Shown: piece after piece, positions 1 through 18,380 of the stretch
Numbering within the stretch: position 1 is the stretch's first letter
Layout: each line of letters starts with the position of its first letter
Virus record (IMG/VR): IMGVR_UViG_3300033149_003459
Span: 7,985-71,984 of that record
Reading direction: 5' to 3' (one strand)
Source: a virus
DNA: 64,000 nt
Notes under the pieces: generated by a model
The model's input: only the letters and a program-made list of their open reading frames with translations
Told to the model about the DNA's origin: nothing
Database searches by the model: none
Position numbers and translations under genes: made by a program

Positions 1-2
1 GC

Positions 3-671
3 AGGGGACCGGAGCTGCTCGACAAGCCCATCGAGGAGTTGCTGCCGATCTCGTTCGTCGGCGCGGCCGCGGTGTCAGCCTATCGGTCATGGATCAGGAA
101 ACTCGACAGCCTGCCGATGGCCGAGGAGCAGAAGCGGGAGACGCTCCGCGACGGCCAGAACGCGGGCAAGATGCTCCTGGCCATCGAGGCGCGGATCGGG
201 GAGCTGCTGCCGCGAGGTGATCGTGCGGGATGGATTCGAACGGAAGGATCTACAAAGAAAGCAACACGACTGAACTTGCCCATTGACGGGAAGCGAGCTC
301 ATGTGGCGAGACAGATATTCAACAACCCCGACGCCGTGGCCGAGGTCATCGCCGAGGCCGAGGAGAACGGGGACATACCCACCAAGACGGCCGTGCTGAA
401 CAAGGTGAGGGATCGGAGGAGGCGGGAACGGGCTCATGCCTATGCGAAGGATCGGGTTGAGGCTCCACCAGAGTTGTCGCGCTTCCTTGACGCATGCATC
501 ACGCGGCAACGGCAGACCAACATCGTGCTGAGCGACATCGTGCGGAACAAGGAGTACCTGCCTGAGAGCAAGCTTGAGGAGTTCGTTGGGGAGGTCGTCT
601 CCACCCTGCGGATACTGTCCACCGATAGATCGCTTAGGAGGATCATGCATGTTGACAGAGAGACAACTTGA
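3..671 (+). CDS. Hypothetical phage protein, 5'-truncated by the window edge
   Basis: Frame open to the window start; the LLAIEARIGELL segment resembles the helical N-terminal domain often fused to phage methyltransferases. Confidence 0.6.
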   Translation, partial: RGPELLDKPIEELLPISFVGAAAVSAYRSWIRKLDSLPMAEEQKRETLRDGQNAGKMLLAIEARIGELLPRGDRAGWIRTEGSTKKATRLNLPIDGKRAHVARQIFNNPDAVAEVIAEAEENGDIPTKTAVLNKVRDRRRRERAHAYAKDRVEAPPELSRFLDACITRQRQTNIVLSDIVRNKEYLPESKLEEFVGEVVSTLRILSTDRSLRRIMHVDRETT

Positions 672-1098
672 GCGGGTGCGCCAGCAGCTTCGATGTTCCG
701 TCGTTGAGGACGTGTTCTTTGACGGCAGGTACCCGAAGATGCAACTCCTATCGAAGGAGGACATCTATCGGGAGCTCGGCATCCCGTATGCTGACGGCGA
801 CTATTTCCAGATACGCGGGATTGACAGTGTCCTTGGTAGGGTACTGGCTGATCTTCGGAAACACCTTCACTTGCGCAACCTAAACTTCGTATCCATTAGG
901 GTGTCGCTGGAGGACGGGCATTCCTACGTTCTGTACGGGTTCACGAATGACGTCAACAAAATAGACGAATGCATATTGAGGTGGAAGAGGTTCTACTATT
1001 GTGGAAGGAGGAACGCCGAAAGGGTTGAACATGCCGGAGAGAAACAAAAGCGTCTTCTTCTCGCAGGGCAGGGGAAACTCCTCGGTTCGCAGCGATGA
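649..1098 (+). CDS. Hypothetical protein
   Basis: ATG at 649 after AGGAGG; lower-GC ORF with no recognised motif. Confidence 0.6.
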   Translation: MLTERQLERVRQQLRCSVVEDVFFDGRYPKMQLLSKEDIYRELGIPYADGDYFQIRGIDSVLGRVLADLRKHLHLRNLNFVSIRVSLEDGHSYVLYGFTNDVNKIDECILRWKRFYYCGRRNAERVEHAGEKQKRLLLAGQGKLLGSQR

Positions 1099-1195
1099 AT
1101 ATAGGGGGCGCTATTTGACGGTTTACGCTGGGCGGCATCTACAGGCGGGTGCCTTGATGGGCGCCTGTACAAAATCATTCTGAGGAGGCCAGGAG

Positions 1196-1810
1196 ATGGC
1201 TACGATCACGGTTCCGATGCTGAACGTTCAGGTCTGCAAGCTGCGCATCCGGGGCACCACACCCCTGATAGTGCACAGGTTCACCAAGAAGGCGCAGCAG
1301 CAGATCATCGACAAGCAGGGCGGCAAGGCCGCCAACAAGAAGGCGGCGAAGATAGCCGAGAAGGAGTTCGAGGACGCCAAGTACAAGCTGCCGGACGGGC
1401 GCGACGGGTTCCCGGCGGTGGCGTTCAAGACGGCCGCCGTGAGCGCGTGCCGCTACGTGGACGGGCTGAAGATGACGCACGTGCGCGGCGCGATGCACGT
1501 GATGGGCGAGGTGGTCGACGGCGTGCCGACCAACCTCGTGGCGCTCGACTGCGACGAGCCGGAGCTGCGCTCCGACCCGGTCACCATCAGCCTGGGGAAG
1601 AGGGACATCCGGCACCGGCCGCAGTACAACCGGTGGCAGACCACGCTGACCATCCATTACAACGCGAACGTCATCACGGTCGAGCAGATCGTGAACCTTT
1701 TCAACAACGCTGGTTTCGGCATCGGGGTCGGCGAGTGGCGGCCGTCGAGCCAAGGATCGTCACAGTTCGGCATGTTCGAGGTGGTCGGCTCTGACGAGGT
1801 TGCGTCGTGA
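1196..1810 (+). CDS. RAMP/Cas7-like protein, candidate effector of a GGY-NN repeat-guided (VIPR-like) system
   Basis: 204 aa, RBS AGGAG. N-terminal strand LRIRGTTPLIVH, the FPAVAFKTAAVSA helix (equivalent to RAMP IPGSSLKGA) and the C-terminal glycine-rich loop AGFGIGVGEWRP...FGMFEV are RAMP-like hallmarks; no other cas effector genes or CRISPR array present. Confidence 0.75.
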   Translation: MATITVPMLNVQVCKLRIRGTTPLIVHRFTKKAQQQIIDKQGGKAANKKAAKIAEKEFEDAKYKLPDGRDGFPAVAFKTAAVSACRYVDGLKMTHVRGAMHVMGEVVDGVPTNLVALDCDEPELRSDPVTISLGKRDIRHRPQYNRWQTTLTIHYNANVITVEQIVNLFNNAGFGIGVGEWRPSSQGSSQFGMFEVVGSDEVAS

Positions 1811-2340
1811 GCGCGGCGAGGGGTGAGAGGCCGACGTGGCGCGCCGGGTCGCGTTTCAGCGCGGACCCGGCCATGGTCGCGAGGGAGCTCAGGGTGCTTC
1901 ACCGGTTCACGTCCGTCCGCGACCAGGTGCGCCACCTCCGGGAGCACGAGGGGGAGTTCCCGACCCTGTGGGGGATACTCCCCACCGACGCGGACTCCGC
2001 GCTCTACGAGCTGCAGGTGGCGACGCTGCACCAGGTGTACACGTCGCTCGACCTTGAGGTCGACGTCACGGGCGGGGACGCTGGCAGCAGGACTATAACG
2101 GTTCGGGCGTTCCCGAGCAACCCGGACGGCCGGGGCTACGTGGAGATATCGCGCATCACGGAGGCCGACGACCGCAGGGGCTACATCGACAGCATCGAGC
2201 GCCGCATCAACGGCCTGCGCAGGGAGCTGTCCGACACGCAGGACTACTTCGAGCGGCGCGGGTACGAGTTCCCCGAGCGGTACGGCGCGCTGCGGCGCGA
2301 CCTTGAGCAGGCGCTGGTCTCGTGGGAGGGCGGCGCGTGA
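1807..2340 (+). CDS. Conserved-type phage protein coupled to the RAMP-like gene
   Basis: GTGA start/stop overlap with 1196..1810; ends 3 nt before the pentamer array; motifs WRAGSRFSADPAMVARELR and VRAF...GYVEI. Confidence 0.7.
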   Translation: MSAARGERPTWRAGSRFSADPAMVARELRVLHRFTSVRDQVRHLREHEGEFPTLWGILPTDADSALYELQVATLHQVYTSLDLEVDVTGGDAGSRTITVRAFPSNPDGRGYVEISRITEADDRRGYIDSIERRINGLRRELSDTQDYFERRGYEFPERYGALRRDLEQALVSWEGGA

Positions 2341-2343
2341 TGT

Positions 2344-2696
2344 GGCAGGCGGGGCGCGGTCAGGTAGGGTAAGGTACGGTGTGGCGCGGCGCGGCGCGGC
2401 TGGGCAGGCAAGGCTGGGTTCGGCGTGGCAAGGCGCGGCAGGGCAGGGCAAGGCGCGGCAGGCGCGGTTTGGCAGGCACGGCGAGGCATGGCAAGGCCGG
2501 GCGTGGCAAGGCAAGGCATGGCAGGCAGGGCGCGGAATGGTTAGGCTGGGCGTGGTTAGGCTGGGCGTGGCATGGCCCGGCAGGCGAGGTTTGGCTGGGC
2601 GTAGTTAGGCATGGTTCGGCAAGGCAAGGCATGGCAGGCAAGGCAAGGCGGGTCGGGGCGAAGCTTGGTTAGGCACGGCTTGGCATGGCTGGGTTT
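2344..2696 (+). repeat. Array of 65 GGY-NN pentamers punctuated by 7 GGCA tetramers; putative guide-RNA array
   Basis: Parsed by hand in register; 61 of 65 pentamers begin GGC or GGT with a variable dinucleotide; GGCA at 2344, 2403, 2457, 2471, 2520, 2579 and 2633; fills the intergenic space. Confidence 0.92.
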
Positions 2697-2703
2697 GTGA
2701 GGT

Positions 2704-3273
2704 GTGCAGGTGGGTGATCTGATACGGTGGTCCGAGATACACAGGCAGATAGTAGAGGCGCGCGACTTCGACACGATAGGGGCCATGCGCGGGAAGCTGG
2801 AGGTGCTCGACGTTGTCGCCAGGCAGCGGCACGAGAGCCTGCAGGTCCGCAACCGCATAGACCGCTACCACATAGAGCTGGCGTGGCGGGCGGCCGAGCT
2901 GTACAAGCAGCTCCCGGAGAGCCGCGGGCGCAGGAGGGCCGGGGATGGCGGGTCCACCTCGAAGCAGGACGCGCTCGACGGGCTCGGCGTGGCGAAGACG
3001 ACGATGTCCCGCTGGGTCGAGACGCTCGACATACCGTTCAAGCGGCGGAAGCTCGACACCTACGAGGCCCGGTGCGACGACGAGGACCGCCCGCTGACGT
3101 TCCAGGGGTTCCGCAAGTTCGCGCTCGACGGCGACGAGCGGCTGCGCGGCGTCAAGCGGCGCGTCACCATCATCATGCGCGGTGGGGAGCCGGTGGAGGT
3201 GCGGAACTGTCCGTCCTCCATCGAGATCGAGGTGTACGACGAGGACTTCGACGAGCGGAGGCTGCTCACGTGA
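2704..3273 (+). CDS. Hypothetical phage protein with HTH-like segment
   Basis: HIELAWRAAELYKQLP...LDGLGVAKTTMSRW; same general family as 3..671. Confidence 0.6.
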   Translation: MQVGDLIRWSEIHRQIVEARDFDTIGAMRGKLEVLDVVARQRHESLQVRNRIDRYHIELAWRAAELYKQLPESRGRRRAGDGGSTSKQDALDGLGVAKTTMSRWVETLDIPFKRRKLDTYEARCDDEDRPLTFQGFRKFALDGDERLRGVKRRVTIIMRGGEPVEVRNCPSSIEIEVYDEDFDERRLLT

Positions 3274-4403
3274 CCGGCATCGAGAAGTTCATGGCCGCCA
3301 TAAACGAGCGGTTCGGGGAGAACACGATACTGCGCGCGTCCGACCTCCCGACGCTCGGGCGCGTGTCCACCGGGTCGGTCGTCCTCGACTGGGGCATAGG
3401 CGGCGGCATAGCCATCGGCCGCATCACGGAGCTGTACGGCTACGAGTCGGTCGGCAAGACGCTCGTCGCGCTGAGGATAGTGCGCAACTTCCAGGAGGCG
3501 TTCCCCGAGCGCTCCGTGGCGTGGGTCGACACGGAGCAGTCGTGGGACGAGGAGTGGGTGCGCCGCGTGGGGGTGGACCCGGCCCGCGTCTGGATAGCGA
3601 AGCCGGACACGCTGAACCAGGCGTTCGACATAATGGACGTGTTCGCACGCACCGGCGACGTGTCGCTCGTGGTGCTGGACTCCCTCGGGGCGTCCGCCCC
3701 GCAGGAGGAGCTCGACGTGTCCATGGTCGACAAGAAGGCCGCCGGGCTCAAGGCGCGGACCGGGAACTGGGGCATGCGCAAGCTGCAGTCGGCGCTGAAC
3801 TACTCCCGTAGGATGGGCCATGAGTCGACCATCCTCGTGATAAACCACACCTACATGGGCCTGTCGGGGTTCCGCCCGACGAAGGAGACGCCCGGCGGCA
3901 AGGGCAAGGACTACGCGGACGCGCTGAAGGTGGAGCTGTTCGTCCGCAAGGAGCTGCGGTACCCGAAGGAGATCGACCCGAACGAGGACCAGTACGGCCA
4001 GCGCGTAGGGTTCTATGTCAAGAAGTCCAAGGTCGGCATCCCGCACAGGCGCGGGGAGTTCGAGGTGTTCATCCAGCCGTACCACGGCTACGACGTCGGG
4101 GACTTCTCACTGCTTGAGTACGTGCCGTTCCTCGTGAACGCTGGCATCCTGTCGAGGACCGGTGCGTGGTACACGCTGCCCGACGGCGGGCGCGTGCAGG
4201 GGGCGCAGGCCGTGGCTGACTGGCTTCGCGGGCTCGACAGTGTCGAGCTTGACACGATGAGGAGGGAGTGCCTTGAACGAGTTGCCGAGCTGGATGTACC
4301 GGACGAGCAAGGAGATGAGCCGGAGGCAGGAGACGCGGCTGGCGAGGGAGCTGGGCGGGACGGTGCAGCGGGGGTCGGGGAACCAGCCGACGAGACCGGG
4401 TGA
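3270..4403 (+). CDS. recA: RecA/UvsX-like recombinase
   Basis: STGSVVLDWGIGGG, GRITELYG, Walker A GYESVGKT, VDTE, Walker B LVVLDS, TPGG; GTG start overlapping the upstream stop. Confidence 0.93.
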   Translation: MTGIEKFMAAINERFGENTILRASDLPTLGRVSTGSVVLDWGIGGGIAIGRITELYGYESVGKTLVALRIVRNFQEAFPERSVAWVDTEQSWDEEWVRRVGVDPARVWIAKPDTLNQAFDIMDVFARTGDVSLVVLDSLGASAPQEELDVSMVDKKAAGLKARTGNWGMRKLQSALNYSRRMGHESTILVINHTYMGLSGFRPTKETPGGKGKDYADALKVELFVRKELRYPKEIDPNEDQYGQRVGFYVKKSKVGIPHRRGEFEVFIQPYHGYDVGDFSLLEYVPFLVNAGILSRTGAWYTLPDGGRVQGAQAVADWLRGLDSVELDTMRRECLERVAELDVPDEQGDEPEAGDAAGEGAGRDGAAGVGEPADETG

Positions 4404-4596
4404 TGTCCTGCTCGACGACTTCCTCGTCGAGGCTAAGATAACGAGGGCGTCGCAGTACACGCTGAGGGCCGCGTCGGTCGAGAAGATCGACAGGGAGGCG
4501 GCGAGCCAGAACCGTGACTGGGTCCTGGTCATAGAGATGGCCGGGCGGCGGCTCGCCGTGGTGTCGTACGACACGTTCAGGGAGGTGGTATGCTGA
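4294..4596 (+). CDS. Holliday-junction-resolvase-like PD-(D/E)xK nuclease
   Basis: QETRLARELGG...GSG...GDV...LVEAK. Confidence 0.75.
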   Translation: MYRTSKEMSRRQETRLARELGGTVQRGSGNQPTRPGDVLLDDFLVEAKITRASQYTLRAASVEKIDREAASQNRDWVLVIEMAGRRLAVVSYDTFREVVC

Positions 4597-5429
4597 AAGA
4601 CGTCATCAGGAACATCCGCTCCCAGGAGGGGGCGCTTGTTGACGAGCTCGACCACTGGCTGATGACCGGGTGCCAGGAGGAGCCGGACGCTGAGACCGTG
4701 GCGCGGCGCGCGCGGTACCTGCACCCCTCCGCGATGGGGAGGTGCTCCAGGGCCGTGGTGTACGAGAAGATCGGGGTGTCGTCCGGGCGCTCGGTGAGCG
4801 CGCAGCTGCAGCGGGTGTTCGACAACGGGCACTCGTTCCACCGGCGCATGCAGCGGTACTACGGCGCGATGGGCGTCCTGCACGGGACGTGGGCCTGCGA
4901 CGCCTGCGGCAAGCGGTGCCGCGTCCACGGCGCGCAGCCGGGGTGCCCTGAGCGTGCCGCACCGGCATGGGAGTACCTTGAGCCCAGGTTCAGGGACGAG
5001 GAAGAGCGCATATCCGGCCGGTGCGACGGCATCGTGTTCCACGGGGGCCGGAGGCTCGTGCTTGAGTTCAAGTCGATAAACAACAGGGGGTTCGTCTCGC
5101 TCTCCGGTCCGAGGCACGACCACATGGCCCAGGGGCAGCTGTACGCCCACGAGTTCCGAGCCGACGGGGTGGTGTACCAGTACGAGAACAAGGACACGCA
5201 GGCGATACGCGAGTACGTGATGCCGCGGGACGACATGCAGATACTGCTCCTGCTGGAGAAGGCCCGCGACATATGGAAGTGCATACTGACCGCCACGCTC
5301 CCGGCCCGCGTGTGTCCGTCGGTCGCTGACGCATACCGGTGCGACTACAAGGACGTGTGCTTCAACGAGTTCTTCGATCCAGCACCGTATTTTGAATCGT
5401 GGAGGGAACGATATGGCGCAGAGCTATGA
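4590..5429 (+). CDS. Cas4-like/RecB-family PD-(D/E)xK exonuclease
   Basis: HPSAMGRC, FDNGHSFH, GRCDG, LEFKS, QGQLY and a C-terminal Cys cluster. Confidence 0.85.
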   Translation: MLKDVIRNIRSQEGALVDELDHWLMTGCQEEPDAETVARRARYLHPSAMGRCSRAVVYEKIGVSSGRSVSAQLQRVFDNGHSFHRRMQRYYGAMGVLHGTWACDACGKRCRVHGAQPGCPERAAPAWEYLEPRFRDEEERISGRCDGIVFHGGRRLVLEFKSINNRGFVSLSGPRHDHMAQGQLYAHEFRADGVVYQYENKDTQAIREYVMPRDDMQILLLLEKARDIWKCILTATLPARVCPSVADAYRCDYKDVCFNEFFDPAPYFESWRERYGAEL

Positions 5430-5928
5430 CGAGAAGGTGACCGAGTACAAGGCCACGCGCGAGGGCATGGCGGCCGCACTGAGGAACGACCTGCCGACGC
5501 CGCGCAGGCTGGAGCAGCAGGAGATAGACTTCGCCAACGGGTTCATGTCGCAGAACGTGGCGACGCTCTCCGACGAGGTGCTCATGCGGTACTTCCACCT
5601 GTTCGTGGGGCTGCACGACTACGCCGGATGGGAGCTCGCCGCGTCGTCGGCCGACCTGGAGGCCGCGACGGAGGTGTACAACTTCACCGTCGCCACGGTG
5701 AAGCTCCAGGCTCCCGACGGCATGAAGCCGAGCCAGGCCGACGCCTGGGTGAAGACCCGGATGGAGATCCAGCGGCTGAACCAGGAGCGGCTGAACCAGC
5801 GGGCGCGGCACGAGCTGCTGAAGGCCCTGACGAAGGGCTACGAGGAGAAGTCCAAGCTCTGCAGCCGGGAGATGACCCGTCGCCTGAGCGCGGCGAACAT
5901 AAACTCCACGAAGCTGGGCGTCACGTGA
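5413..5928 (+). CDS. UvsY-like recombination mediator (tentative)
   Basis: Helical protein ending SREMTRR, within the RecA/nuclease module. Confidence 0.5.
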   Translation: MAQSYDEKVTEYKATREGMAAALRNDLPTPRRLEQQEIDFANGFMSQNVATLSDEVLMRYFHLFVGLHDYAGWELAASSADLEAATEVYNFTVATVKLQAPDGMKPSQADAWVKTRMEIQRLNQERLNQRARHELLKALTKGYEEKSKLCSREMTRRLSAANINSTKLGVT

Positions 5929-6605
5929 TCCCGGCGGTGTTCTCGTACGGCATGCCGAAGACCGGCACCACGCTCATGCTCAAGGCGTTCATGCGGTGCC
6001 GCGGGGTATACTACTGCCGCATCCGCGAGGGGTACTCGATACACCCGATGAACAGCGAGACGGGACTGTGCGACGTCGTGCGGTGGAACGGGGGCCACCC
6101 CATCGTGCTCGTGCGGACCTACCGGCACCCCGTCGACGTGATGGAGGCGCTGTTCAGGATTCACGCGGACTGGGGCGACGCTGAGCTCCGCAGGTTCGTC
6201 GGCTTCTACCGCGCGGAGTTCGAGAACACGGCGCGGTGCGTGCGCAGGATACTGCGCGGGGAGTGCAACAGCCCGCAGTACCCCACGCGGGTGGTGTTCG
6301 CCGAGATAGAGTTCGGGGGCATCGGCAGGGGGCCGATCCTGGAGGAGTTCCTGGCGCGGCTCGCGGGGCCGCTCAGCCCCATGGCGGTCGACGCCGTGCG
6401 GGGGTACCTGACAGGGACATGGGGCCGCAGGCCGTCGCGCGACGGCAGGCTGAGGCGGATCATCGAGGGGCGGCCGGTGCCCAATATCCTCAGCGACCGG
6501 CAGATCGACTACGTCGTCACGGAGCTGTCCGACGTGATAGCCGCCATGCGGTTGCGGTATAGCAACCGCCTCGACGGGTGGGAGGACGAGTATGGGAGAC
6601 GATAG
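5925..6605 (+). CDS. Sulfotransferase-like protein
   Basis: PAPS-binding loop YGMPKTGTT and 3'-PB-like RHPVDV. Confidence 0.7.
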   Translation: MIPAVFSYGMPKTGTTLMLKAFMRCRGVYYCRIREGYSIHPMNSETGLCDVVRWNGGHPIVLVRTYRHPVDVMEALFRIHADWGDAELRRFVGFYRAEFENTARCVRRILRGECNSPQYPTRVVFAEIEFGGIGRGPILEEFLARLAGPLSPMAVDAVRGYLTGTWGRRPSRDGRLRRIIEGRPVPNILSDRQIDYVVTELSDVIAAMRLRYSNRLDGWEDEYGRR

Positions 6606-7509
6606 GTGGAAGGGCTTCGAGCGCAAGGTGGCGGCCAGGTTCCGGGGACGGCGCGTGGTGCGGCCGGACTGGGGGAAGCCGGACCTCGACGTGGTGGCCG
6701 AGCCGTTCGGCATCGAGTGCAAGTACCGCAAGAGCTTCTCCTACGAGCGGGCACTTGCCGAGGCCGAGCATATTGTGGATACTGTTCCTGAGCGGTCCGG
6801 CCTGCTGCCGCTGGCGGTGTGCCAGCACCCGGGCGAGCGCGGGCGCGAGATGGTGGCCTTCCGCCTCGGCATGCTCGGCAGCGTGCTCGGCGTGGCGTTC
6901 GCGTCCAAGGCGTTCGACGAGGTGGCCGTGATGCCGCTGAAGTATTTCATGGCGTCAGGGAAGGCGATCAGGATCAGGTGCGAGGGGACGGAGGCGCTCC
7001 CGCTTGACGACCTCTGCGACCTACAGGGGACGCTGAAGGTGCTGACCGACGAGAACGCGGCGAAGCTGCGCGAGAGCATCCTGCGGTTCGGTTTCTCGTT
7101 TCCGGTGTTCGTGTGGGGCAGGGCCAAGCGTTACATCGTGGACGGGCACCAACGCGTCGAGGTCCTGAAGCGCCTGCGCGACGAGGGGTACGAGGTGCCG
7201 GACATACCGGTGGTCCCGATCCATGCTTCGTCGAAGGCCGAGGCGAGGAAGAAGCTCCTGACCGCCGTATCGCAATACGGCGACGTGTCGGTCACCGGGC
7301 TCGCCGACATGCTTGACGACATGGACGCCGCCAACATGGACCTGTCGTCCGTGGTGGCCATGCCGGGCATCGACCTGTCGGGGTTCTTCGAGTCCCTTGA
7401 GTCGGACGGCATCCCGGTCACTGATGGCGTTGCGCCGGTGGCCGAGGACACCGACATCGACACGCTCGCCACCAGCATGGAGTGCCCGAAGTGCGGGTAC
7501 CGGTGGTGA
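6592..7509 (+). CDS. Resolvase-like nuclease fused to a ParB/Srx-like domain
   Basis: N-terminal KGFERKVA...PDLD...IECK; C-terminal KLRESILRFGFSFPVFVW...IVDGHQR; terminal CPKCG. Confidence 0.7.
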   Translation: MGDDRWKGFERKVAARFRGRRVVRPDWGKPDLDVVAEPFGIECKYRKSFSYERALAEAEHIVDTVPERSGLLPLAVCQHPGERGREMVAFRLGMLGSVLGVAFASKAFDEVAVMPLKYFMASGKAIRIRCEGTEALPLDDLCDLQGTLKVLTDENAAKLRESILRFGFSFPVFVWGRAKRYIVDGHQRVEVLKRLRDEGYEVPDIPVVPIHASSKAEARKKLLTAVSQYGDVSVTGLADMLDDMDAANMDLSSVVAMPGIDLSGFFESLESDGIPVTDGVAPVAEDTDIDTLATSMECPKCGYRW

Positions 7510-7910
7510 GCACGGACCGTGACGCTCCGGTGGGAAGGAAGAGGTCGTACACGATGTCGCGGATACGCAGCAGCGGCACTCGGCCGGAGCTCATGGTCGA
7601 GTGGTTCCTGCACACCGTCGGCGCGTCGTTCGAGTGGCAGCCACGAATCCACGGTCGGCCGGACTTCCTCGTCGAGGGGCGGGTTGCCGTGTTCGTCGAC
7701 GGGTGCTTCTGGCATGGCTGCCCGGAGCACTACAGGGAGCCTAAGACGCGCGCGAGTTTCTGGCGGGCCAAGATATCAAGGAACAGGGGGCGCCGTGAGG
7801 AGGTGCTTCCGGTCCTGCGCCGCTCCGGGTACACTGTCATAAGCATATGGGAGCACGCCGTCAATGACGGATCGTACAAGGGCGAGCTTTGGCTGGCGAT
7901 GCCCCGGTAG
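7506..7910 (+). CDS. vsr: Very-short-patch repair endonuclease
   Basis: RSYTMSRIRSSGTRPE, PDF, FVDGCFWHGC, FWRAKISRN. Confidence 0.92.
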   Translation: MSTDRDAPVGRKRSYTMSRIRSSGTRPELMVEWFLHTVGASFEWQPRIHGRPDFLVEGRVAVFVDGCFWHGCPEHYREPKTRASFWRAKISRNRGRREEVLPVLRRSGYTVISIWEHAVNDGSYKGELWLAMPR

Positions 7911-7925
7911 ACCCATTAGACACAT

Positions 7926-8945
7926 ATGCAGTATGGAGATAGGATGCTGAGCAGGGTTCCGACTGTTATCTCAACGTTTGCCGGATGCGGTGGGTCATCG
8001 CTCGGTTACAGGTGGGCAGGTTTCAATGAGCTGCTCGCAGTGGACTTCAACGCCAACGTGGAGCGGTCGTTCAACGCCAACTTCCCAGACGTCCCGTTCT
8101 GGCGGCGCGATATCACCGAGGTCACGGCCGGGGAGGTCCTGTCCTTCTGCGGAATCGGGAAGGGTGACCTCGACGTTCTTGACGGGTCGCCACCGTGCCA
8201 GGGATTCTCGATAGCCGGAAAGCGCAACATACAGGACCCGAGGAACAGCCTGTTCGGCGACTTCGTGCGGCTTGTATCCGGGCTGCGCCCGAAGGTGTTC
8301 GTCATGGAGAACGTTCCGGGCATGGCTATAGGGACATACCGCGGTGTCTTCAACGAGGTGTTGACGGTCCTGCGGTCCACCGGCTACTCGGTGCTGTGCA
8401 GGCTGATGAACGCGGCGAACCATGGCGTCCCGCAGAGCAGGCGGCGTCTCATCTTCATAGGGGTGCGGCCTGACCTCGGAGTGCCACCGGTGTTCCCAGA
8501 CCCGCTCGGCGGCGTCATGACATCCGGCGACGCCATCGACGGGGTGGACAGCTCCGACGAGGAGCTTGCGTGGGCCAGGTGGCTGGCTGATGACCATGAC
8601 TGCGCGTCATCGAAAATTGTCAAGAGAGCATTTCTACTGATGAGACCCGGCGAGAATGGATCAAGATATTTTGATGGTAAATATTTTAACTATGTCAAAC
8701 TGCATCCTGACAGGCCGTCGCCGACCATACTGACGATGCCGACAGGGTACAGAAACCGTTACTTCCATTGGAGTGACGCGCGCAATATAACCGTGTCGGA
8801 ATGCAGGCGGCTCTGCTCGTTCCCGGATTCGTTCAGGCTGTCCGGCAGGCTCCATGAGCAGTGGACGCAGCTCGGCAACTCCGTGATGCCGCGCTTCATG
8901 GAGGCCGTGGCCGGGACCGTCAAGAGGGACATACTGGGGGTATGA
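7926..8945 (+). CDS. DNA cytosine-C5 methyltransferase
   Basis: FAGCGG (motif I), GSPPCQGFS (IV), ENV (VI), QSRRR (VIII), QLGNSV (X). Confidence 0.95.
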   Translation: MQYGDRMLSRVPTVISTFAGCGGSSLGYRWAGFNELLAVDFNANVERSFNANFPDVPFWRRDITEVTAGEVLSFCGIGKGDLDVLDGSPPCQGFSIAGKRNIQDPRNSLFGDFVRLVSGLRPKVFVMENVPGMAIGTYRGVFNEVLTVLRSTGYSVLCRLMNAANHGVPQSRRRLIFIGVRPDLGVPPVFPDPLGGVMTSGDAIDGVDSSDEELAWARWLADDHDCASSKIVKRAFLLMRPGENGSRYFDGKYFNYVKLHPDRPSPTILTMPTGYRNRYFHWSDARNITVSECRRLCSFPDSFRLSGRLHEQWTQLGNSVMPRFMEAVAGTVKRDILGV

Positions 8946-8946
8946 C

Positions 8947-9300
8947 ATGCCGAGGACTCTGAAGCAGATCGTGGCGAACTGGGAGCACTACGGGACGGTC
9001 GACGCGCAGGACCTCGCCGCGCTGGTCCGGGCCGTCAGGAAGCACGACCACACGGTCGCCGTGCTTGAGGGTAAGGTGCTGTCAGCCGAGTCGGACAGCA
9101 GGCGGCTGATGAGAGAGGTCGACGCGCTGCGCGACTACAAGGGAAGGACGCTCCACAGGCTGAAGAAGCTTGAGGAGGAGGTCCGGGAGCTGAGGAAGGC
9201 GGCCGCGATCCGCGGCCGGGAGACCGGGCAGGCCGGGGGCGGGGCGGTCTCCCTGGAGGGAGAGAACGATGAGGGACATGATCGAGAACATCGAGCTTGA
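8947..9300 (+). CDS. Hypothetical coiled-coil protein
   Basis: ORF in operon register. Confidence 0.5.
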   Translation: MPRTLKQIVANWEHYGTVDAQDLAALVRAVRKHDHTVAVLEGKVLSAESDSRRLMREVDALRDYKGRTLHRLKKLEEEVRELRKAAAIRGRETGQAGGGAVSLEGENDEGHDREHRA

Positions 9301-10006
9301 CCCGCCGAGTAGCAGGCTCGTGACCGTGAGCCACACGGTCATGGTCCTGGACCGCAGCGGGTCCATGCAGGCGATCCGCAGGCTGGCCGTCGACGGGGTG
9401 AACGAGCAGATCCAGGCGTGCAAGCGGGCCGAGACGACGTTCAAGAAGCGGTTCACGCTCGTGACGTTCAGCACGTTCGTGGACGACCCCGCGTTGCTGG
9501 CCGTCGACGTCGACGCCCTGTCGGGCACGTACCTGACGATGGAGGACTACCGCCCGGACGGCCTGACCGCGCTGTACGATGCGGTCGGCAAGACCATCAG
9601 GATGTTCGAGGAGCGCGACAGGGGCGGGTCCACGTTCCTGTTCTGCGTGCTGTCGGACGGGCAGGAGAACAACTCCGTGGAGTTCGACGGTCCGGGGCTC
9701 GCCGAGCTCATACAGGCGAAGACCGGAAAGGGCAACTGGACGTTCACCTACCAGGGCACGGGTGTGGACCTCTCGGTGATGCGGTCGCTGAACATTCCGG
9801 AGGACAACATCCAGGTGTACCGGGACTTCTCTGACCGGAGCTTCGCCACCCTGACGTCGGACAGGGCCGTGGGCACGCAGCTGTACTTCGCGTCGCTGTC
9901 GAACGGTGACATGTCATCGAGCGACTTCTACACGAGCTCTGGTGTAGAGGTCTACCCGAACCAGGAGGATGGCGATGCCCGGCGGCCGCAAGACGATACT
10001 GAATGA
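9269..10006 (+). CDS. von Willebrand factor A domain protein
   Basis: MIDAS motif VLDRSGSM, TALYDA, SDGQEN. Confidence 0.88.
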   Translation: MRDMIENIELDPPSSRLVTVSHTVMVLDRSGSMQAIRRLAVDGVNEQIQACKRAETTFKKRFTLVTFSTFVDDPALLAVDVDALSGTYLTMEDYRPDGLTALYDAVGKTIRMFEERDRGGSTFLFCVLSDGQENNSVEFDGPGLAELIQAKTGKGNWTFTYQGTGVDLSVMRSLNIPEDNIQVYRDFSDRSFATLTSDRAVGTQLYFASLSNGDMSSSDFYTSSGVEVYPNQEDGDARRPQDDTE

Positions 10007-10523
10007 GGAGCTCTCCAGGCAGTACTGCAACTACGTCAAGATCGGCATGACCGAGAAGGACGCGGCCGTGCTGTGCGGGGTGGACATCACCACCGTGATG
10101 CAGTGGAAGCGCAAGGGCCGCGCGGCGTACGACGACGACACCGTGGAGTTCGGCGAGAGCACGAACATGTACGTCGACTTCTTCCTTGAGGTCGACAAGG
10201 CCAAGCGCTTCGCCAAGCAGCTGTGCCTGCAGACGATAGTGCAGGCGCTGCCGAGCGACCCGAAGCTGTGCCTGACGTGGCTCGGGCGGAAGTACCCGGA
10301 TGAGTGGGGCCGCAAGGACTGGCCCCGGATGCAGCAGAACACGCTCGTGCTGCAGGAGACGGGGCTCATCGGGAAGGATGGGAGAATTGACGTCGACGGA
10401 ATCCGCGAGAGCATTGCTCGCGCACGGCGAACCTTCACTATCGACGATATTGGAGCTCAGGAGCGACTTGTGCCTGGAGATGGAGCGGCTGCTGACAATC
10501 CAGGAGCAGGCACGGCTTCCTGA
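9969..10523 (+). CDS. Terminase small subunit
   Basis: N-terminal HTH (GMTEKDAAVLCGVDITTVMQW), WLGRKYPDEWGRKD; directly upstream of TerL. Confidence 0.75.
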   Translation: MAMPGGRKTILNEELSRQYCNYVKIGMTEKDAAVLCGVDITTVMQWKRKGRAAYDDDTVEFGESTNMYVDFFLEVDKAKRFAKQLCLQTIVQALPSDPKLCLTWLGRKYPDEWGRKDWPRMQQNTLVLQETGLIGKDGRIDVDGIRESIARARRTFTIDDIGAQERLVPGDGAAADNPGAGTAS

Positions 10524-13041
10524 CGTCCAGGCGGACGCCGAGTACACGGAGGCGCTTGAACTCACCATAGTGGAGCTCGCGCAGTGCCTCGATGCCATCC
10601 AGGGCTCCGTCGAGCTGTACGACAGCACCCTCCGCTACGCCGAGGACCCGGTCCGGTTCATCAACAACGAGTGCTCCCTGTTCAACCCGGACAAGGAACC
10701 GGCCATAATGCCGTTCCACCTGTACGACTACCAGGCCGAGTTCATCGAGAGGCTGCACATTGCCTACAGGAACGACGAGTCGCTGCTCACCGAGAAGACC
10801 CGGCAGATGGGGATGTCGTGGCTCTACATGGCGTTCTTCCTGTGGGCGCTCCTCTACGACCCGGACTTCTCGGGCATCGTGCTGAGCTACAACATCCGGC
10901 TGGTCGACGACGGCGGGTCGGAGAGCAGCATCAACTCCCTGCTCGGCAAGCTGCGCTTCATGTACGACCTCCTGCGCGCGCCGCTGCGCGGGGTCCTCGC
11001 CGTGAAGTACCTGAACGTGCGCAACCTGCGCACGAGCGCCTACCTCGTCGGCGAGACGGCGCACCCGAACGCGGGGCGCGGCGGGTCGTACAAGATAGGG
11101 CTGTGGGACGAGACCGCGCTGTCGGTTAAGAGCGAGGAGGTGTTCAGCGCCTTCTACCAGGCCACGCGGTGCAGGTGCTACAACTCGACTCCGCGCGGCA
11201 AGGGCAACGTCTTCGCCCGCCTGCGGTTCGCGGCGGAGTCCACGGTGAACGTCGTGACGCTGCACTGGACGCTGCACCCGGAGAAGGGCGCGGGCGCGGT
11301 GCAGAACAAGGACGGCAGGTGGACGTCACCGTGGTACGAGCACGAGTGCCGGGACATGACCCCTGCGCAGATCGCGCAGGAGCTCGACATCGACTACGAG
11401 ACGTCGGTCGAGGGCAGGGTGTACGAGAAGTTCAGGAGCACGGTGCACGTGCTGAAGGAGGCCCCGGAGTTCCGGCCGGAGTTCGAGACCATCATAGCGT
11501 GGGACCTCGGCGTGGCCGACGACACGTTCGGGGTGGTGTTCCAGCGGGACCCGCAGGGGTCGCTCCTCGTGTTCGACGAGGTGGTCGGGACGGACGAGGA
11601 CATAAGGTTCTACATAGACCTCGTGTGCGGGGTGCGCCCGTCCGAGCTCGACTATGTGTTCGACAAGAAGCTGGAGGCGTACGAGCGGTTCCTCGGCAAC
11701 GCGCAGGAGCACGACTACGCGGGGTTCGTCCAGGTGGCCGGGCCGGACGCGGGCCAGCGCAGCATAAACAGCAAGACCTCCGTCCGCCAGCAGTTCACGA
11801 CGGCCGGGCAGATCGGCCGCGCCAGCGGCAGCTCAGACAGGCGGTACAGGGACATGCGGATGGTCGCCATGAGCGGGTACAAGATCCTCGACCGGATAGT
11901 CGCCACCAGGAAGGTGATGGACCCGGCGAGGCAGCGGTTCTACGTGTCCCCGGTGTGCGTGCACACCATAGAGCACCTGTCGAACTACGCATGGACGAAG
12001 ACGTCGGAGGGCATGAACAGGGAGGTGCCGGATCACAACTGGGCCTGCCTGCGCGGTGATGTCAGGGTGCGGACGCTCAACGGATGGGTTCCGATATCGG
12101 AGGTGTCCGCTGGGGACTTCGTGTGGGGGTACTCAGAAAAGGAGCGCCGCCTGGTTCCGGCTGAGGTCGGCAATGCCGGAAGGACGGGCGTCAATGCAAG
12201 GCTCCTTGAGGTCGGCATAGACAGCGGCCGGTCGCTGTTCTGCACGCCGGAGCACCGGCTCATGCTGAGGGACGGCTCGTACCGGCGCGCCGATGAGCTG
12301 GCCGTCGGTGACGGTCTGATGCCGTTCTACGAGAGACTGAACAGGAGCTACATCCGCGTTGACCTCAACGACGGGACGTTCGCCGATGAGCACAGGTTCG
12401 TGTACAGCCGGTTCAACGGTTCGCTTGGGGAGACCGGTCTCCACGTCGACCATATCAACCACAACAGGTTCGACAACAGGCCTGAGAACCTGCAGCTGCT
12501 GTCTGTGGATGACCACTGTCAGAAGACGTTCCGGGGGAAGAGCGCCGAGGAGAGGAGGCTGGTGGACGCCACACCTGAGCGTGATTTCTACAACTCACGG
12601 TCCGGCTACTTCAAGTGGTGCAAGAACTGCGGGGAGGAGTTCTTCGGGACGCACAAGCGGGCTTACTGCTCTCCGCGCTACCGTGATGAGTACAGGAAGA
12701 TGCGCGATAGGGCGCAACTCATTCCGAGCCGGTCCGACGAGGCCAGGCTTGAGAAGAACAGGAAGGCGGGGGAGAAATACCGCAGGAACGGGAAGAACCA
12801 CAAGGTCAGGTTCATACGCTCCGCGGCCTCCGCCGACGTGTACGACCTGTCCGTACCTGAGCTCGGAAACTTCGTCGCCGAGGGTGTGGTGGTCCACAAC
12901 TCGCACGGGGCTGACGCCGTCGGGTACGGCGTGCTGTACTTCTCAAGGAGGCGCGAGGTGAGGATGAAGCCGGACCTGCACGGGGACCGCGTGCGCCGGA
13001 CGACCCGGAACCTCGGCACGCCGATGAGGGTTGGAAGGTGA
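10378..13041 (+). CDS. Terminase large subunit containing an intein
   Basis: Q motif (LYDYQ), EKTRQMGMSW, WDE, STPRG, AWDLG, and the nuclease motif HNWA/SHGADA split by the intein; start may instead be 10480. Confidence 0.93.
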   Translation: MGELTSTESARALLAHGEPSLSTILELRSDLCLEMERLLTIQEQARLPDVQADAEYTEALELTIVELAQCLDAIQGSVELYDSTLRYAEDPVRFINNECSLFNPDKEPAIMPFHLYDYQAEFIERLHIAYRNDESLLTEKTRQMGMSWLYMAFFLWALLYDPDFSGIVLSYNIRLVDDGGSESSINSLLGKLRFMYDLLRAPLRGVLAVKYLNVRNLRTSAYLVGETAHPNAGRGGSYKIGLWDETALSVKSEEVFSAFYQATRCRCYNSTPRGKGNVFARLRFAAESTVNVVTLHWTLHPEKGAGAVQNKDGRWTSPWYEHECRDMTPAQIAQELDIDYETSVEGRVYEKFRSTVHVLKEAPEFRPEFETIIAWDLGVADDTFGVVFQRDPQGSLLVFDEVVGTDEDIRFYIDLVCGVRPSELDYVFDKKLEAYERFLGNAQEHDYAGFVQVAGPDAGQRSINSKTSVRQQFTTAGQIGRASGSSDRRYRDMRMVAMSGYKILDRIVATRKVMDPARQRFYVSPVCVHTIEHLSNYAWTKTSEGMNREVPDHNWACLRGDVRVRTLNGWVPISEVSAGDFVWGYSEKERRLVPAEVGNAGRTGVNARLLEVGIDSGRSLFCTPEHRLMLRDGSYRRADELAVGDGLMPFYERLNRSYIRVDLNDGTFADEHRFVYSRFNGSLGETGLHVDHINHNRFDNRPENLQLLSVDDHCQKTFRGKSAEERRLVDATPERDFYNSRSGYFKWCKNCGEEFFGTHKRAYCSPRYRDEYRKMRDRAQLIPSRSDEARLEKNRKAGEKYRRNGKNHKVRFIRSAASADVYDLSVPELGNFVAEGVVVHNSHGADAVGYGVLYFSRRREVRMKPDLHGDRVRRTTRNLGTPMRVGR
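12046..12900 (+). mobile_element. Intein with HNH homing endonuclease in TerL (285 aa)
   Basis: Starts CLRGDVRVRT; block B CTPEHRL; HVDHINHNRFDNRPENL; block F VYDLSV; ends VVHN before Ser. Confidence 0.93.
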
Positions 13042-13451
13042 TGGACCTCATAGACTTCATAGAGATAGGTGAGTACGCGGAGACGCGCCGCCTGCTGCGG
13101 GTGTTCGTGGAGTGCGGGCCGATGGAGCGCCCGTACGTCCTGTCGGTTGATGGTCTTGTGGCCGGGTCCGGACATGCGGGGGCAGGGTTCGAGCGCGCCG
13201 TGTTTTTCCGTGCGCGCGTCTTCGGCCTGAGGACGGACGTGGACCTGTCCGACATCTCCGACGAGTGGACGTTGAGGGTGTCGGCCACCACGGCGACCGG
13301 GAAGTTCCTGTCCCACACCATTCCCTCCAAGACGGTCCTGGGCAGCGTCATCATCCCGATCGTGCGTCTCACCTTCGATTACGGGTACACGCTGGGCGTG
13401 ACGATGCCCCGGGCCGATATTGCCCAGCGGTGGGGGGATGAGCATGAATAG
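13038..13451 (+). CDS. Hypothetical protein
   Basis: Overlaps the TerL stop codon. Confidence 0.55.
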   Translation: MMDLIDFIEIGEYAETRRLLRVFVECGPMERPYVLSVDGLVAGSGHAGAGFERAVFFRARVFGLRTDVDLSDISDEWTLRVSATTATGKFLSHTIPSKTVLGSVIIPIVRLTFDYGYTLGVTMPRADIAQRWGDEHE

Positions 13452-13465
13452 AGGATGCTCAGGGG

Positions 13466-13494
13466 TTTACTTTTATCAGATATTATCTTATTTT
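13466..13494 (+). promoter_or_regulatory. Sigma70-like promoter
   Basis: TTTACT-17 bp-TATTTT in an AT-rich island. Confidence 0.45.
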
Positions 13495-13649
13495 ATATAC
13501 ATGACAGGCGGAGGGGTCCGGGTGAGGTGTCCGGTGGCGTCGGTGCCAACACACCACGCCGCCGCACCTCGACCGTGCAGACACCACGCGGGAGCGGACG
13601 CGCCGTTAGTCCGGCCCGGTGCCCCGATGCCGTTTCAGGAGGTTAGGAC

Positions 13650-13919
13650 ATGAGGTTTTCGCTCTGCATCGGTGACCTTGAGGTCCGCATGAACCAGCGG
13701 GTTCATGCGCGCGAGATAGTGCGGTGGAGCGGGGGGAAGGACGGGAAGGCGTGCCGCGTGCTGGCGCTGTGGGAGGACTCGGAGAGCGGGCCTGAGCTCC
13801 GCTTCGTAGGCGGCAGGCCGTTCGACCAGGGTGTGGACACGCTCGTTTTCTGGCGTCTCGCGGCGGTGGGCCAGGCGGTGTTCACCCTATCCCACGAGAC
13901 GCTGACGGACGACGACTGA
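13650..13919 (+). CDS. Hypothetical protein
   Basis: ATG with upstream GGAGG/AGGA. Confidence 0.55.
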   Translation: MRFSLCIGDLEVRMNQRVHAREIVRWSGGKDGKACRVLALWEDSESGPELRFVGGRPFDQGVDTLVFWRLAAVGQAVFTLSHETLTDDD

Positions 13920-13928
13920 GGTGGCGGG

Positions 13929-14458: not shown

Positions 14459-14615
14459 ACCTCGCGATCCTCCGGTTCGTCGTGGGACTTGTCGCCGGTG
14501 GCCTCATCACCCTTGGCGTCATAAGCCTGGCCGAGGGTGCGGTCGTGGTCGGGATGACGGGCATGCTTACGAGCCTCCTCATGCTATGGGTTGTGGTCAG
14601 GGCGGGGCCGTCGAG

Positions 14616-16475: not shown

Positions 16476-16489
16476 CGGAGGGAACGTTA

Positions 16490-18372: not shown

Positions 18373-18380
18373 GAGGAATA

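What the first reader, a model, noticed from the sequence alone, without database searches (positions are those of the whole stretch)
1196..2696. Stand-alone RAMP/Cas7-like gene, partner gene and GGY-NN pentamer array: candidate programmable RNA-guided system
Seen: a 204-aa protein with RAMP hallmarks (first strand LRIRGTTPL, PAVAFK helix, G-rich loop GFGIGVGEWRP..FG.F), a coupled 177-aa gene, then 353 bp of non-coding DNA made of a constant GGY triplet alternating with a variable NN dinucleotide. There is no CRISPR repeat-spacer array and no cas1/2/5/6/8. Established: Cas7-type RAMPs polymerise along guide RNA with a fixed per-subunit footprint. Inference: one subunit binds each 5-nt unit through GGY, and the exposed NN pairs together spell a non-contiguous target, giving a minimal phage-encoded RNA-guided DNA-binding system, plausibly used against competing phages/MGEs or host promoters. 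The layout matches my recollection of the recently reported VIPR (viral interference programmable repeat) systems; I could not verify that here.
Basis: partly seen in the sequence, partly recalled or inferred. Interest (0 to 1): 0.97.

Follow-up and report, generated by a model that had tools for sequence, protein, structure and literature searches.

The report
Phage VIPR RNA-guided silencing locus
A 72-kb high-GC phage carries a VIPR system (a small Cas7-like protein, an accessory gene and a pentamer-repeat guide-RNA array), a kind of RNA-guided DNA-binding system first described in 2026 preprints, so this is a new member of a known kind and not a new kind.

Summary
Window 1196-1810 encodes a 204-aa protein, 1807-2340 a coupled 177-aa protein, and 2344-2696 is a GGY-NN pentamer array. 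A five-unit GGY-NN pattern matches 30 times, all in the array, against 0.03 expected.

The protein folds as a RAMP: top match Csm3, Z 10.3, and ranks 1-45 are all CRISPR RAMPs. It belongs to phrog_4652, the family of the characterised SUSP1 Vipr. It keeps that protein's GGY-contact residues.

In 90 of 141 usable related loci, an array of the same kind lies just downstream on the same strand; 2 have one on the opposite strand.

The array is of the "staggered" type. Four-nucleotide GGCA junctions split it into blocks of 9-11 full units plus two short ones. Relatives show the same junction spacing.

The accessory protein is an orphan, with only weak profile similarity to the clade's usual partner.

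No natural target, transcript or RNA-protein complex could be shown.

Verdict: a new member of a known kind, of moderate-to-low interest.

The parts
1196..1810 (+). vipr: 204-aa stand-alone RAMP (Vipr family, phrog_4652)
   Evidence: ORF; GC3 0.93; phrog_4652 E 7.7e-28; AF2 pLDDT 86.6; Csm3 Z 10.3; hhalign to SUSP1 Vipr prob 97.8
1807..2340 (+). 177-aa accessory gene in the vap position, translationally coupled (GTGA overlap); an orphan sequence
   Evidence: GC3 0.94; no homolog other than itself; hhalign to the clade's usual second gene prob 70, E 4.1e-5 over 128 columns; no similarity to SUSP1 vap1
2344..2696 (+). staggered vrRNA array: about 70 GGY-NN units with 4-nt GGCA junctions
   Evidence: same kind of array, strand and position in 90 of 141 related loci
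2348..2407 (+). guide block g1: 11 full units plus the shared GGCA(G) junction unit
   Evidence: Parse, checked against the sequence
2407..2461 (+). guide block g2: 10 units plus junction unit
2461..2475 (+). short block g3: 2 units plus junction unit (a remnant, or the 5' part of g4)
2475..2524 (+). guide block g4: 9 units plus junction unit
2524..2583 (+). guide block g5: 11 units (one degenerate, GGAAT) plus junction unit; contains a 15-nt internal duplication
2583..2637 (+). guide block g6: 10 units (one degenerate, AGTTA) plus junction unit
2637..2696 (+). 3' end of the array: short block g7 (2 units, GGCG junction at 2647), a 6-nt unit at 2651, then g8 (8 units from 2657, one degenerate)
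   Evidence: no significant fold (z -1.8); no Rfam match

Best explanation
This is a VIPR (Viral Interference Programmable Repeat) locus of a tailed phage. It has three parts: vipr (1196-1810), an accessory gene in the vap position (1807-2340), and a staggered vrRNA array (2344-2696).

Inferred mechanism, by homology to the SUSP1 and P. fulva systems:
- The operon is transcribed through the array.
- Vipr protomers bind one per 5-nt unit. Each GGY is clamped between neighbouring protomers by the thumb arginine (R141 here) and the G-loop E-W-R (180-182).
- The two variable bases of each unit are left exposed.
- The resulting filament of about 10-12 protomers reads double-stranded DNA with a gapped code: two paired bases, then one skipped base.
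- It sits on the target and blocks transcription of a competing phage, satellite or prophage.

My own inference concerns the GGCA junctions. There the last G of one unit is also the first G of the next. This breaks the 5-nt register, so it ends one filament and starts the next. That would yield six guides of about 50-60 nt plus two short remnants, without the 3' pseudoknot tail that type II vrRNAs carry.

Shown here: the fold, the family membership, the conserved contact residues, the array grammar, the co-occurrence of arrays in relatives, and the phage context.

Inferred: transcription, processing, RNA-protein complex formation, DNA binding, and the identity of the targets.
For: - Fold. The AF2 model has pLDDT 86.6 and pTM 0.82. 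Foldseek's top hits are Csm3 chains (8do6_E, E 6.2e-6, TM 0.48; 73 hits at E<=0.001). In the VIA-align wide search the best match is 9g9a_D (Csm3): Z 10.3, rmsd 4.3, 149 residues aligned. Ranks 1-45 of the 50 shown are all CRISPR RAMPs.
- Family. The window protein hits phrog_4652 at E 7.7e-28. SUSP1 agp039, the Vipr that I located in NC_028808.2 with profile A1, hits the same PHROG at E 1.4e-96. hhalign of A1 against SUSP1 Vipr gives prob 97.8, E 1.3e-12.
- Contact residues. The structure preprint (sections 5 and 6 read) names R138, D177, W178 and R179 as GGY contacts. These align to window R141, E180, W181 and R182. In alignment A1 they are kept in 36, 35, 33 and 36 of 36 sequences. Nine of the ten residue numbers named in the preprint fit my SUSP1 translation.
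- Array. The pattern test gives 30 matches against 0.03 expected. The array is on the gene strand only.
- Co-occurrence. Of 160 related loci, 141 hold at least 1200 nt downstream of the gene. Of these, 90 have a + strand array of 8 or more units starting 0-2600 nt downstream, 6 have one upstream, 1 elsewhere, and 2 have any minus-strand array. The detector also finds SUSP1's own arrays, as a positive control.
- NN is locus-specific. No relative's in-phase run shares more than 15 of 22 NN bases with a window guide.
- Junction grammar is shared. In relatives' arrays of 20 or more units, 259 of 2956 spacings are 4 nt. At least 161 of those 259 read GGCAGGY. Of 197 internal runs between junctions, 95 are 10-12 units long. 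This fits the legend of fig. S18 ('staggered vrRNA arrays', 1-nt overlaps).
- Phage context. The record encodes a portal, a terminase, a tape measure protein, a minor tail protein and a UvsX-like recombinase. It is a virus record with CheckV completeness 86.
- No self-target was found, as the discovery preprint reports for its own systems.
Against: - No RNA data exist for this phage, so transcription, processing and binding are untested.
- No convincing natural target was found.
- The second gene has no detectable homolog. It is unrelated to SUSP1 vap1.
- There is no conserved 3' tail or other significant RNA structure (z -1.4 and -1.8). There is no ribozyme or other Rfam match in the array. 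The end-defining mechanism is therefore my conjecture.
- Three units have degenerate scaffolds and two blocks are only 2 full units long.
- hhalign aligned only the C-terminal 62 columns to SUSP1 Vipr. The H17 equivalent (H27) rests on a motif match alone.
- 51 of the 141 usable relatives showed no downstream array with my GGY-only detector.
Confidence: 0.88

Rival explanations
1. It is a VIPR locus by descent but is decaying or no longer targets anything. The array drifts by duplication, and the accessory gene has diverged beyond recognition.
For: Three units have degenerate scaffolds and two blocks hold only 2 full units. Blocks g4 to g6 look like diverged copies of one another (TRF period 49, 2.9 copies, 76% matches; a 15-nt unit repeated 2.2 times at 100%). 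The accessory protein is an orphan. No target was found.
Against: Both ORFs are intact with GC3 0.93 and 0.94, like the phage's other genes. All four aligned GGY-contact residues are kept. 60 of 63 parsed units keep GGY. The discovery preprint notes frequent internal degeneracy in working vrRNAs (section 20). My target searches required exact matches in collections that may not hold the host's other mobile elements.
Confidence: 0.08
2. The pentamer tract acts as DNA and not as guide RNA. It could be a G-rich recombination or replication element, or a binding-site array for the neighbouring proteins.
For: No transcript evidence is available. The tract is G-rich on one strand.
Against: The same tract with the same strand bias follows the RAMP gene in 90 of 141 usable relatives, and only 2 carry one on the other strand. 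A symmetric double-stranded DNA site would not need that bias. The protein family is experimentally an RNA-binding filament former (preprint sections read). The contact residues for GGY in RNA are conserved.
Confidence: 0.03
3. The tract is protein-coding, with the ORFs at 2303-2608 or 2379-2672 encoding a repetitive Gly/Arg/Ala-rich peptide.
For: ORFs of 97-101 aa run through it. Equivalent tracts are annotated as CDS in two named phage records.
Against: The period is 5 nt with -1 slips, which cannot keep a codon register. Open frames exist in several frames and on both strands, simply because GGYNN rarely makes stop codons. Conservation falls on GGY and not on any reading frame.
Confidence: 0.01

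Closest known systems
Type II VIPR of Escherichia phage SUSP1 (Vipr = agp039, vap1 = agp038, four vrRNAs; bioRxiv 10.64898/2026.04.26.720920 and 10.64898/2026.04.26.720927)
   Same: Same PHROG family for the RAMP (phrog_4652). Same order on one strand: vipr, second gene, array. Same GGY/NN units. Thumb Arg and G-loop D/E-W-R are conserved. Both lie in tailed phages.
   Different: The proteins are related only at profile level; tblastn of the window protein against the phage collection did not return SUSP1. The accessory proteins are unrelated (phrog_5926 versus an orphan). SUSP1 vrRNAs are separate RNAs of about 100 nt, each with a 3' pseudoknot tail, and one lies upstream of vipr. Here a single 353-nt uninterrupted array has 4-nt junctions and no tail.
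'Staggered vrRNA arrays' of the VIPR discovery preprint (legend of fig. S18; passage seen)
   Same: Successive vrRNAs overlap by 1 nt, so the end of one marks the start of the next. That is exactly what the GGCA|GGC junctions here amount to.
   Different: I saw only the legend. The figure, the VIPR type it belongs to and the example locus are not available (supplements closed). I therefore cannot say whether this clade is the one shown, or which of types I-VII it is.
Vipr homologs with adjacent arrays in cultured actinobacteriophages (Mycobacterium phage Donkeykong gp49, Gordonia phages Pipp gp42 and Ecliptus gp19) and Cyanophage Cy-LDV1 g34
   Same: 34-40% identity over about 90-96% of the window protein. 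Same-strand GGY-NN arrays of 15-68 units lie beside the gene in 4 of the 4 records I opened.
   Different: In Donkeykong the array lies upstream of the gene, inside the immunity and early region. Two of the arrays are annotated as hypothetical-protein CDS (Donkeykong gp48, Pipp gp43). These are temperate phages of Actinomycetota, whereas the host of the window's phage is unknown.
Cas7-family backbone subunits of type III CRISPR effectors (Csm3/Cmr4)
   Same: Best structural match (Z 10.3). RRM core, thumb and glycine-rich loop. By homology to Vipr, one subunit binds per fixed step of guide RNA.
   Different: There is no repeat-spacer array and no Cas1. It is a single small RAMP without Cas10, Cas5 or Cas6 partners nearby. 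The guide is a 5-nt unit code with gapped pairing, instead of a 6-nt step on a contiguous spacer (preprints).

Membership tests
VIPR system | Vipr protein: a small single-RRM RAMP with thumb and glycine-rich loop | tested here: met
   AF2 pLDDT 86.6. Csm3 Z 10.3, and ranks 1-45 are all CRISPR RAMPs. Foldseek's top hits are Csm3. Beta-hairpin thumb at about 114-156, and a G-loop GFGIGVGEWRP at 173-183.
VIPR system | Sequence relationship to an experimentally characterised Vipr | tested here: met
   phrog_4652: window E 7.7e-28, SUSP1 Vipr E 1.4e-96. hhalign prob 97.8, E 1.3e-12 over 62 columns.
VIPR system | Residues that hold GGY (SUSP1 H17, R138, D177, W178, R179) | tested here: met
   R141, E180, W181 and R182 align to R138, D177, W178 and R179. 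They are kept in 33-36 of 36 relatives. H27 matches H17 only through the G-x-x-P-x-x-x-H motif and is not aligned by hhalign, so that one residue is inconclusive.
VIPR system | Tandem GGY/NN (YNNGG) units, at least 4, beside vipr on its strand | tested here: met
   About 70 units at 2344-2696 on the + strand. 30 pattern matches against 0.03 expected.
VIPR system | GGY conserved while NN is variable between related loci | tested here: met
   Arrays occur in 90 of 141 usable relatives. The best NN sharing with any of 251 in-phase runs from relatives is 15 of 22. No close strain pair (above 90% identity) of the window itself was available.
VIPR system | Guide length of 9-16 units per vrRNA | tested here: met
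   Blocks between junctions hold 11, 10, 9, 11 and 10 full units. There is also an 8-unit terminal block (g8) and two short blocks of 2 units. In relatives the mode is 10-12 units. The block ends are inferred from sequence and not from RNA ends.
VIPR system | Invariant structured 3' tail after each repeat tract (a type II feature) | tested here: not met
   There is no constant tail between blocks and no significant fold (z -1.4 and -1.8). The preprint lists tail-less staggered and ribozyme-separated architectures as other VIPR forms. So this argues against type II membership and not against VIPR membership.
VIPR system | A vap accessory gene next to vipr | tested here: inconclusive
   A coupled 177-aa gene sits in the vap position. 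It is unrelated to vap1. It shows weak similarity to the clade's usual second gene, phrog_15946 (prob 70, E 4.1e-5). The sequences of vap2-6 were not available to me.
VIPR system | Mostly viral or proviral location, without a CRISPR array or adaptation genes | tested here: met
   Phage structural genes. Virus record. No repeated 20-mers. No Cas1.
VIPR system | vrRNAs are expressed and co-purify with Vipr | not testable with these tools
   No RNA run is listed for this sequence.
VIPR system | Natural targets that obey the 1-nt skip rule, typically in competing mobile elements | tested here: inconclusive
   See Tried and rejected. There were exact hits for g4 (1 hit) and g2 (9 hits), but no second guide converges on any of those contigs, and the genes hit look cellular.
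Class 1 CRISPR-Cas | Repeat-spacer array and a multi-subunit cas operon (Cas5, Cas7, large subunit; Cas1/Cas2 for adaptation) | tested here: not met
   No CRISPR-type repeats. No Cas1. PADLOC gave nothing for the RAMP or its neighbours, apart from a weak Cas4-like nuclease-domain hit 1.9 kb downstream.

The most novel reading that the evidence does not exclude
In this clade the guide ends are written into the array itself. The 4-nt GGCA junction, a 1-nt overlap of two units, breaks the 5-nt register. It acts as a ruler that terminates one Vipr filament and nucleates the next. Guides of about 55 nt would then be defined by protein phasing and trimming, with no tail, ribozyme or Cas6-like cut. 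In this reading the orphan 177-aa protein is a seventh, undescribed vap type adapted to this phage.
Probability: 0.3. Interest if true: 0.5.

Novelty: new member of a known kind. Interest (0 to 1): 0.3.

Why it matters
The result confirms that a tool-less reading of raw sequence recognised a VIPR locus correctly. It adds a well-delimited example of the less studied staggered array form, from an uncultured high-GC phage.

Two points may be useful to people working on VIPR:
- The junction grammar (GGCA|GGY every 10-12 units) is shared across more than 40 related loci. It is a concrete, testable candidate for how tail-less vrRNAs are measured out.
- Cultured Mycobacterium and Gordonia phages carry relatives at 34-40% identity, with arrays that are annotated as hypothetical proteins or left unannotated. 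These offer a tractable model and an annotation fix.

Nothing here changes the published picture of what VIPR is.

Tried and rejected
Target search with the published 1-nt skip rule:
- On the phage's own record, with the array masked, the best NN matches were 12-18 and lay within the range of 200 shuffled guides. No skip length from 0 to 3 stood out.
- The 160 related loci (1.37 Mb) gave the same result.
- Exact gapped patterns scanned against IMG/VR gave 0 hits for g5, g2, g6 and g1.
- g4 (18 specified bases) gave 1 hit, L164. It lies in a 508-aa open frame with the skipped base on the wobble position.
- I do not accept that hit as a target. The flanking units do not match. No other guide scores above its null on that 26-kb contig. 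By my own estimate, not a tool output, about one chance hit is expected for 18 fixed bases in a collection of this size. A control pattern with the unit order reversed gave 0 hits.
- g2 scanned against the metagenome contigs gave 9 hits.
  - Six fall at one site of a 1232-aa protein, 87-99% identical among the six contigs, that looks to me like a cellular alpha-amylase-family enzyme. That name is my reading of the sequence; no family search was run.
  - Two fall in a small unrelated protein, 52% identical between its two copies.
  - One follows a stop codon.
- The shared peptide at these sites is forced by the pattern itself. No other guide converges on the held parts of those contigs. I count this as about three independent hits, within the range of chance, and not as a target.

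Expression:
- No RNA holder is listed.
- The single DNA run, with a small share of the words, gave one 213-nt contig identical to 2692-2904 and short, poorly matching pieces inside the array. I take nothing from this.

Accessory protein:
- There was no hit in Pfam, PHROGs, PADLOC or NCBIfam at the thresholds used.
- The only homolog found was the protein itself.
- The ESM Atlas search gave no usable hit.
- The single-sequence AF2 model had pLDDT 51.9 and was not used for a fold search.
- The PDB sequence search with the clade's accessory profile gave nothing below E 0.5.

Other checks:
- Megablast of window 1-20000 against named phages gave no match.
- The portal protein finds only relatives at 27-29% identity, in Bacillota phages, so the host remains unknown.
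- The sigma-70 promoter and terminator scans of 600-3400 found nothing that bears on the locus.
- Rfam gave two sub-threshold hits outside the array.
- I could not assign a VIPR type (I-VII). The figures and supplements that define the types were not visible.
- Whether this very protein is among the discovery preprint's 2,664 sequences could not be checked.
Full report
**What is in the sequence.** Window 1196..1810 (+) is a 204-aa ORF preceded by an AGGAGG-type site. ORF 1807..2340 (+) encodes 177 aa, and its GTG start overlaps the first gene's stop. Both have GC3 of 0.93-0.94, like the other confident genes of this 64.5% GC record. Three bases after the second stop codon, a tract runs from 2344 to 2696 in which GGY recurs every 5 nt. 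The pattern (GGYNN)x4+GGY matches 30 times in the 64-kb window, all on the + strand within 2348-2694. Dinucleotide-preserving shuffles give 0.03 matches on average, and none of 100 reached 30. A chain detector that I wrote finds no other such tract on either strand.

**Array grammar.** The tract is not strictly periodic. Four-nucleotide units break the phase by -1: GGCA at 2344, 2403, 2457, 2471, 2520, 2579 and 2633, and GGCG at 2647. Read another way, a GGCAG unit shares its last G with the first G of the next unit. Between junctions lie blocks of 11, 10, 2, 9, 11, 10 and 2 full units, followed by a final 8-unit block. Three units have a degenerate scaffold. Blocks g4 to g6 look like diverged duplicates of one another (TRF period 49, 2.9 copies, 76% matches). 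The variable dinucleotides are AT-rich (33% and 41% GC). C is nearly absent from the first variable position (3 of 63). The base make-up of the second variable position resembles that of codon position 2 in this phage. That would fit targets read with the skipped base on the wobble position, but it is only a consistency.

**The protein.**
- Neither Pfam, NCBIfam nor PADLOC names it.
- PHROGs places it in phrog_4652 (E 7.7e-28).
- It has 247 relatives in the word-indexed search; the best non-self relative is 67% identical and most are 43-52%.
- It has 3460 50%-identity cluster representatives at E<=0.001 in the exhaustive search.
- An AF2 model built from a 36-sequence alignment is confident (pLDDT 86.6, pTM 0.82).
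- Foldseek against the PDB returns Csm3 chains first (E 6.2e-6).
- The search that does not rely on Foldseek gives Csm3 at Z 10.3 (rmsd 4.3, 149 residues aligned). Ranks 1-45 of the 50 rows shown are all CRISPR RAMPs.

**Link to the literature.** Full-text searches found four 2026 bioRxiv preprints.
- Discovery paper, 10.64898/2026.04.26.720920. I read the abstract, the Results, methods sections 18, 20, 26 and 27, and passages of the figure legends.
- Structure paper, 10.64898/2026.04.26.720927. I read the abstract, sections 5 and 6, and passages.
- Phage-satellite paper, 10.64898/2026.10.15.759431. I read the abstract, the introduction, methods section 17, and passages.
- Language-model survey, 10.64898/2026.10.21.760802. 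I read passages only.

No supplements or figures were visible.

These preprints define VIPR as follows. A stand-alone RAMP (Vipr) sits with an accessory gene (vap). The vrRNAs consist of 9-16 GGY/NN units. One protomer binds per unit, and GGY is held by the thumb and the G-loop. The NN pairs read double-stranded DNA with one base skipped per unit. The outcome is transcriptional silencing of competing phages and satellites. Seven types are reported, including 'staggered arrays' whose vrRNAs overlap by 1 nt.

**Membership tests.**
- I located the characterised SUSP1 Vipr in NC_028808.2 with my profile. It is in the same phrog_4652 (E 1.4e-96).
- It aligns to my profile with hhalign probability 97.8 (E 1.3e-12) over the thumb-to-G-loop part.
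- The GGY contacts named in the structure paper, R138, D177, W178 and R179, correspond to window R141, E180, W181 and R182. These are kept in 36, 35, 33 and 36 of 36 relatives.
- H17 matches H27 only through a shared motif.
- SUSP1 has the same layout on one strand: vipr, second gene, array. My detector finds its arrays.

**Co-occurrence in relatives.** From 80 viral and 80 genome loci that encode relatives, 141 hold at least 1200 nt downstream of the gene. Of these:
- 90 carry a same-strand array of 8 or more units starting within 2.6 kb downstream;
- 6 carry one upstream;
- 1 carries one elsewhere;
- 2 carry any array on the opposite strand.

The distance from gene to array is bimodal, either under 300 nt or about 420-700 nt. 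The second mode corresponds to an intervening gene of about 160 aa, as in the window. No guide of the window is shared with any of 251 in-phase runs from relatives (best 15 of 22), so NN content differs between loci. In relatives' long arrays, 259 of 2956 spacings are 4 nt and at least 161 of those read GGCAGGY. Of 197 internal runs between junctions, 95 are 10-12 units long. Some near-identical loci and overlapping chains are counted more than once in these figures. The junction grammar of the window is therefore a clade feature, and it fits the published description of staggered arrays.

**The accessory gene.** 84 loci have a + strand ORF of at least 80 aa starting next to vipr. In 71 of them the product falls in one BLASTP cluster, which corresponds to phrog_15946, of unknown function. 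The window's 177-aa protein is not in that cluster. It has no homolog except itself in 5.8 billion proteins. It is unrelated to SUSP1 vap1. A profile of 36 clade accessory proteins does align with it collinearly over 128 columns (hhalign prob 70, E 4.1e-5). It is most likely a strongly diverged member of that family, but this is not settled. Its single-sequence model was too poor to use.

**Genomic context.** The record is a linear virus record of 71,984 nt with CheckV completeness 86. Nearly all genes lie on one strand. They include a portal, a terminase large subunit with an HNH insert, a tape measure protein, a minor tail protein, a UvsX-like recombinase and a Cas4-domain exonuclease. It has no close named relative. 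It has no CRISPR-type repeats and no Cas1.

**What could not be shown.**
- No RNA data exist for this phage.
- The array shows no significant fold and no Rfam family.
- The target searches with the 1-nt skip rule gave no self-target and nothing in the related loci.
- Four guides gave no exact hit in IMG/VR.
- g4 gave one exact hit and g2 gave nine exact metagenome hits. I judge these to lie within chance. No second guide converges on any of those contigs, and the peptide the hits share is forced by the pattern. The genes hit also do not look mobile: one looks cellular to me, one is a small unrelated protein, and one site is non-coding.

**Verdict.** This is a VIPR locus with a staggered array and an orphan accessory gene, and so a new member of a known kind (confidence 0.88). 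[quoted passage not shown] The one idea of my own is that the GGCA junction is a register break that sets filament and guide ends; it is a testable conjecture. I put the interest at moderate to low, because the kind, its code, its structure and even the staggered form are already in print.

Noticed in passing
L176:1995-2344 (Mycobacterium phage Donkeykong, NC_051648.1) and L177:3119-3347 (Gordonia phage Pipp, MN234179.1): GGY-NN arrays of 68 and 41 units lie beside Vipr homologs (gp49, gp42). They are annotated as hypothetical-protein genes (Donkeykong gp48 at locus 1980-2366; Pipp gp43 at 3117-3386). Gordonia phage Ecliptus and Cyanophage Cy-LDV1 have arrays in unannotated gaps. All 4 of the 4 named records opened had one. 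A full-text search for the VIPR name together with 'mycobacteriophage' found no paper.
   Followed up: partly
window 2704-3273 (+): The 189-aa ORF that starts 8 nt after the array has a weak helix-turn-helix-like match (NCBIfam RacA N-terminus, E 2e-4, far below the cut-off). It has no tblastn match in the 160 related loci. Whether it belongs to the VIPR locus is open.
   Followed up: partly
window 671-1195: A stretch of about 525 nt upstream of vipr has no ORF that passes my GC3 filter. A 174-aa ORF (574-1098) runs through it and matches no family. SUSP1 also has a long upstream intergenic region, which holds a vrRNA, but no GGY-NN chain is found here.
   Followed up: partly
window 2470-2637: Guide blocks g4, g5 and g6 resemble each other (TRF period 49, 2.9 copies, 76% matches; both g4 and g6 end ...AA AA AT). 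g5 holds an exact 15-nt internal duplication. This suggests that the array grows by duplication of blocks followed by change at the NN positions.
   Followed up: no
window 2348-2696: C is nearly absent from the first variable position (3 of 63 units). The second variable position has a base make-up close to that of codon position 2 of this phage.
   Followed up: no
window 3303-5429: A UvsX/RecA-like recombinase and a Cas4-domain (PD-(D/E)XK) exonuclease lie just downstream of the locus. This looks like a phage recombination module and not a CRISPR remnant.
   Followed up: no
window 10300-13041: A 913-aa ORF combines a terminase-large-subunit match (aa 114-277) with HNH endonuclease matches (aa 681-836). 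This may be a fusion or an inserted homing nuclease.
   Followed up: no
L047 (IMG/VR locus), array at 4565-4957: One relative's guide shares 15 of 22 NN bases with block g1, above the shuffled-guide maximum of 13. g1 is GC-repetitive, so this may be a composition effect.
   Followed up: no
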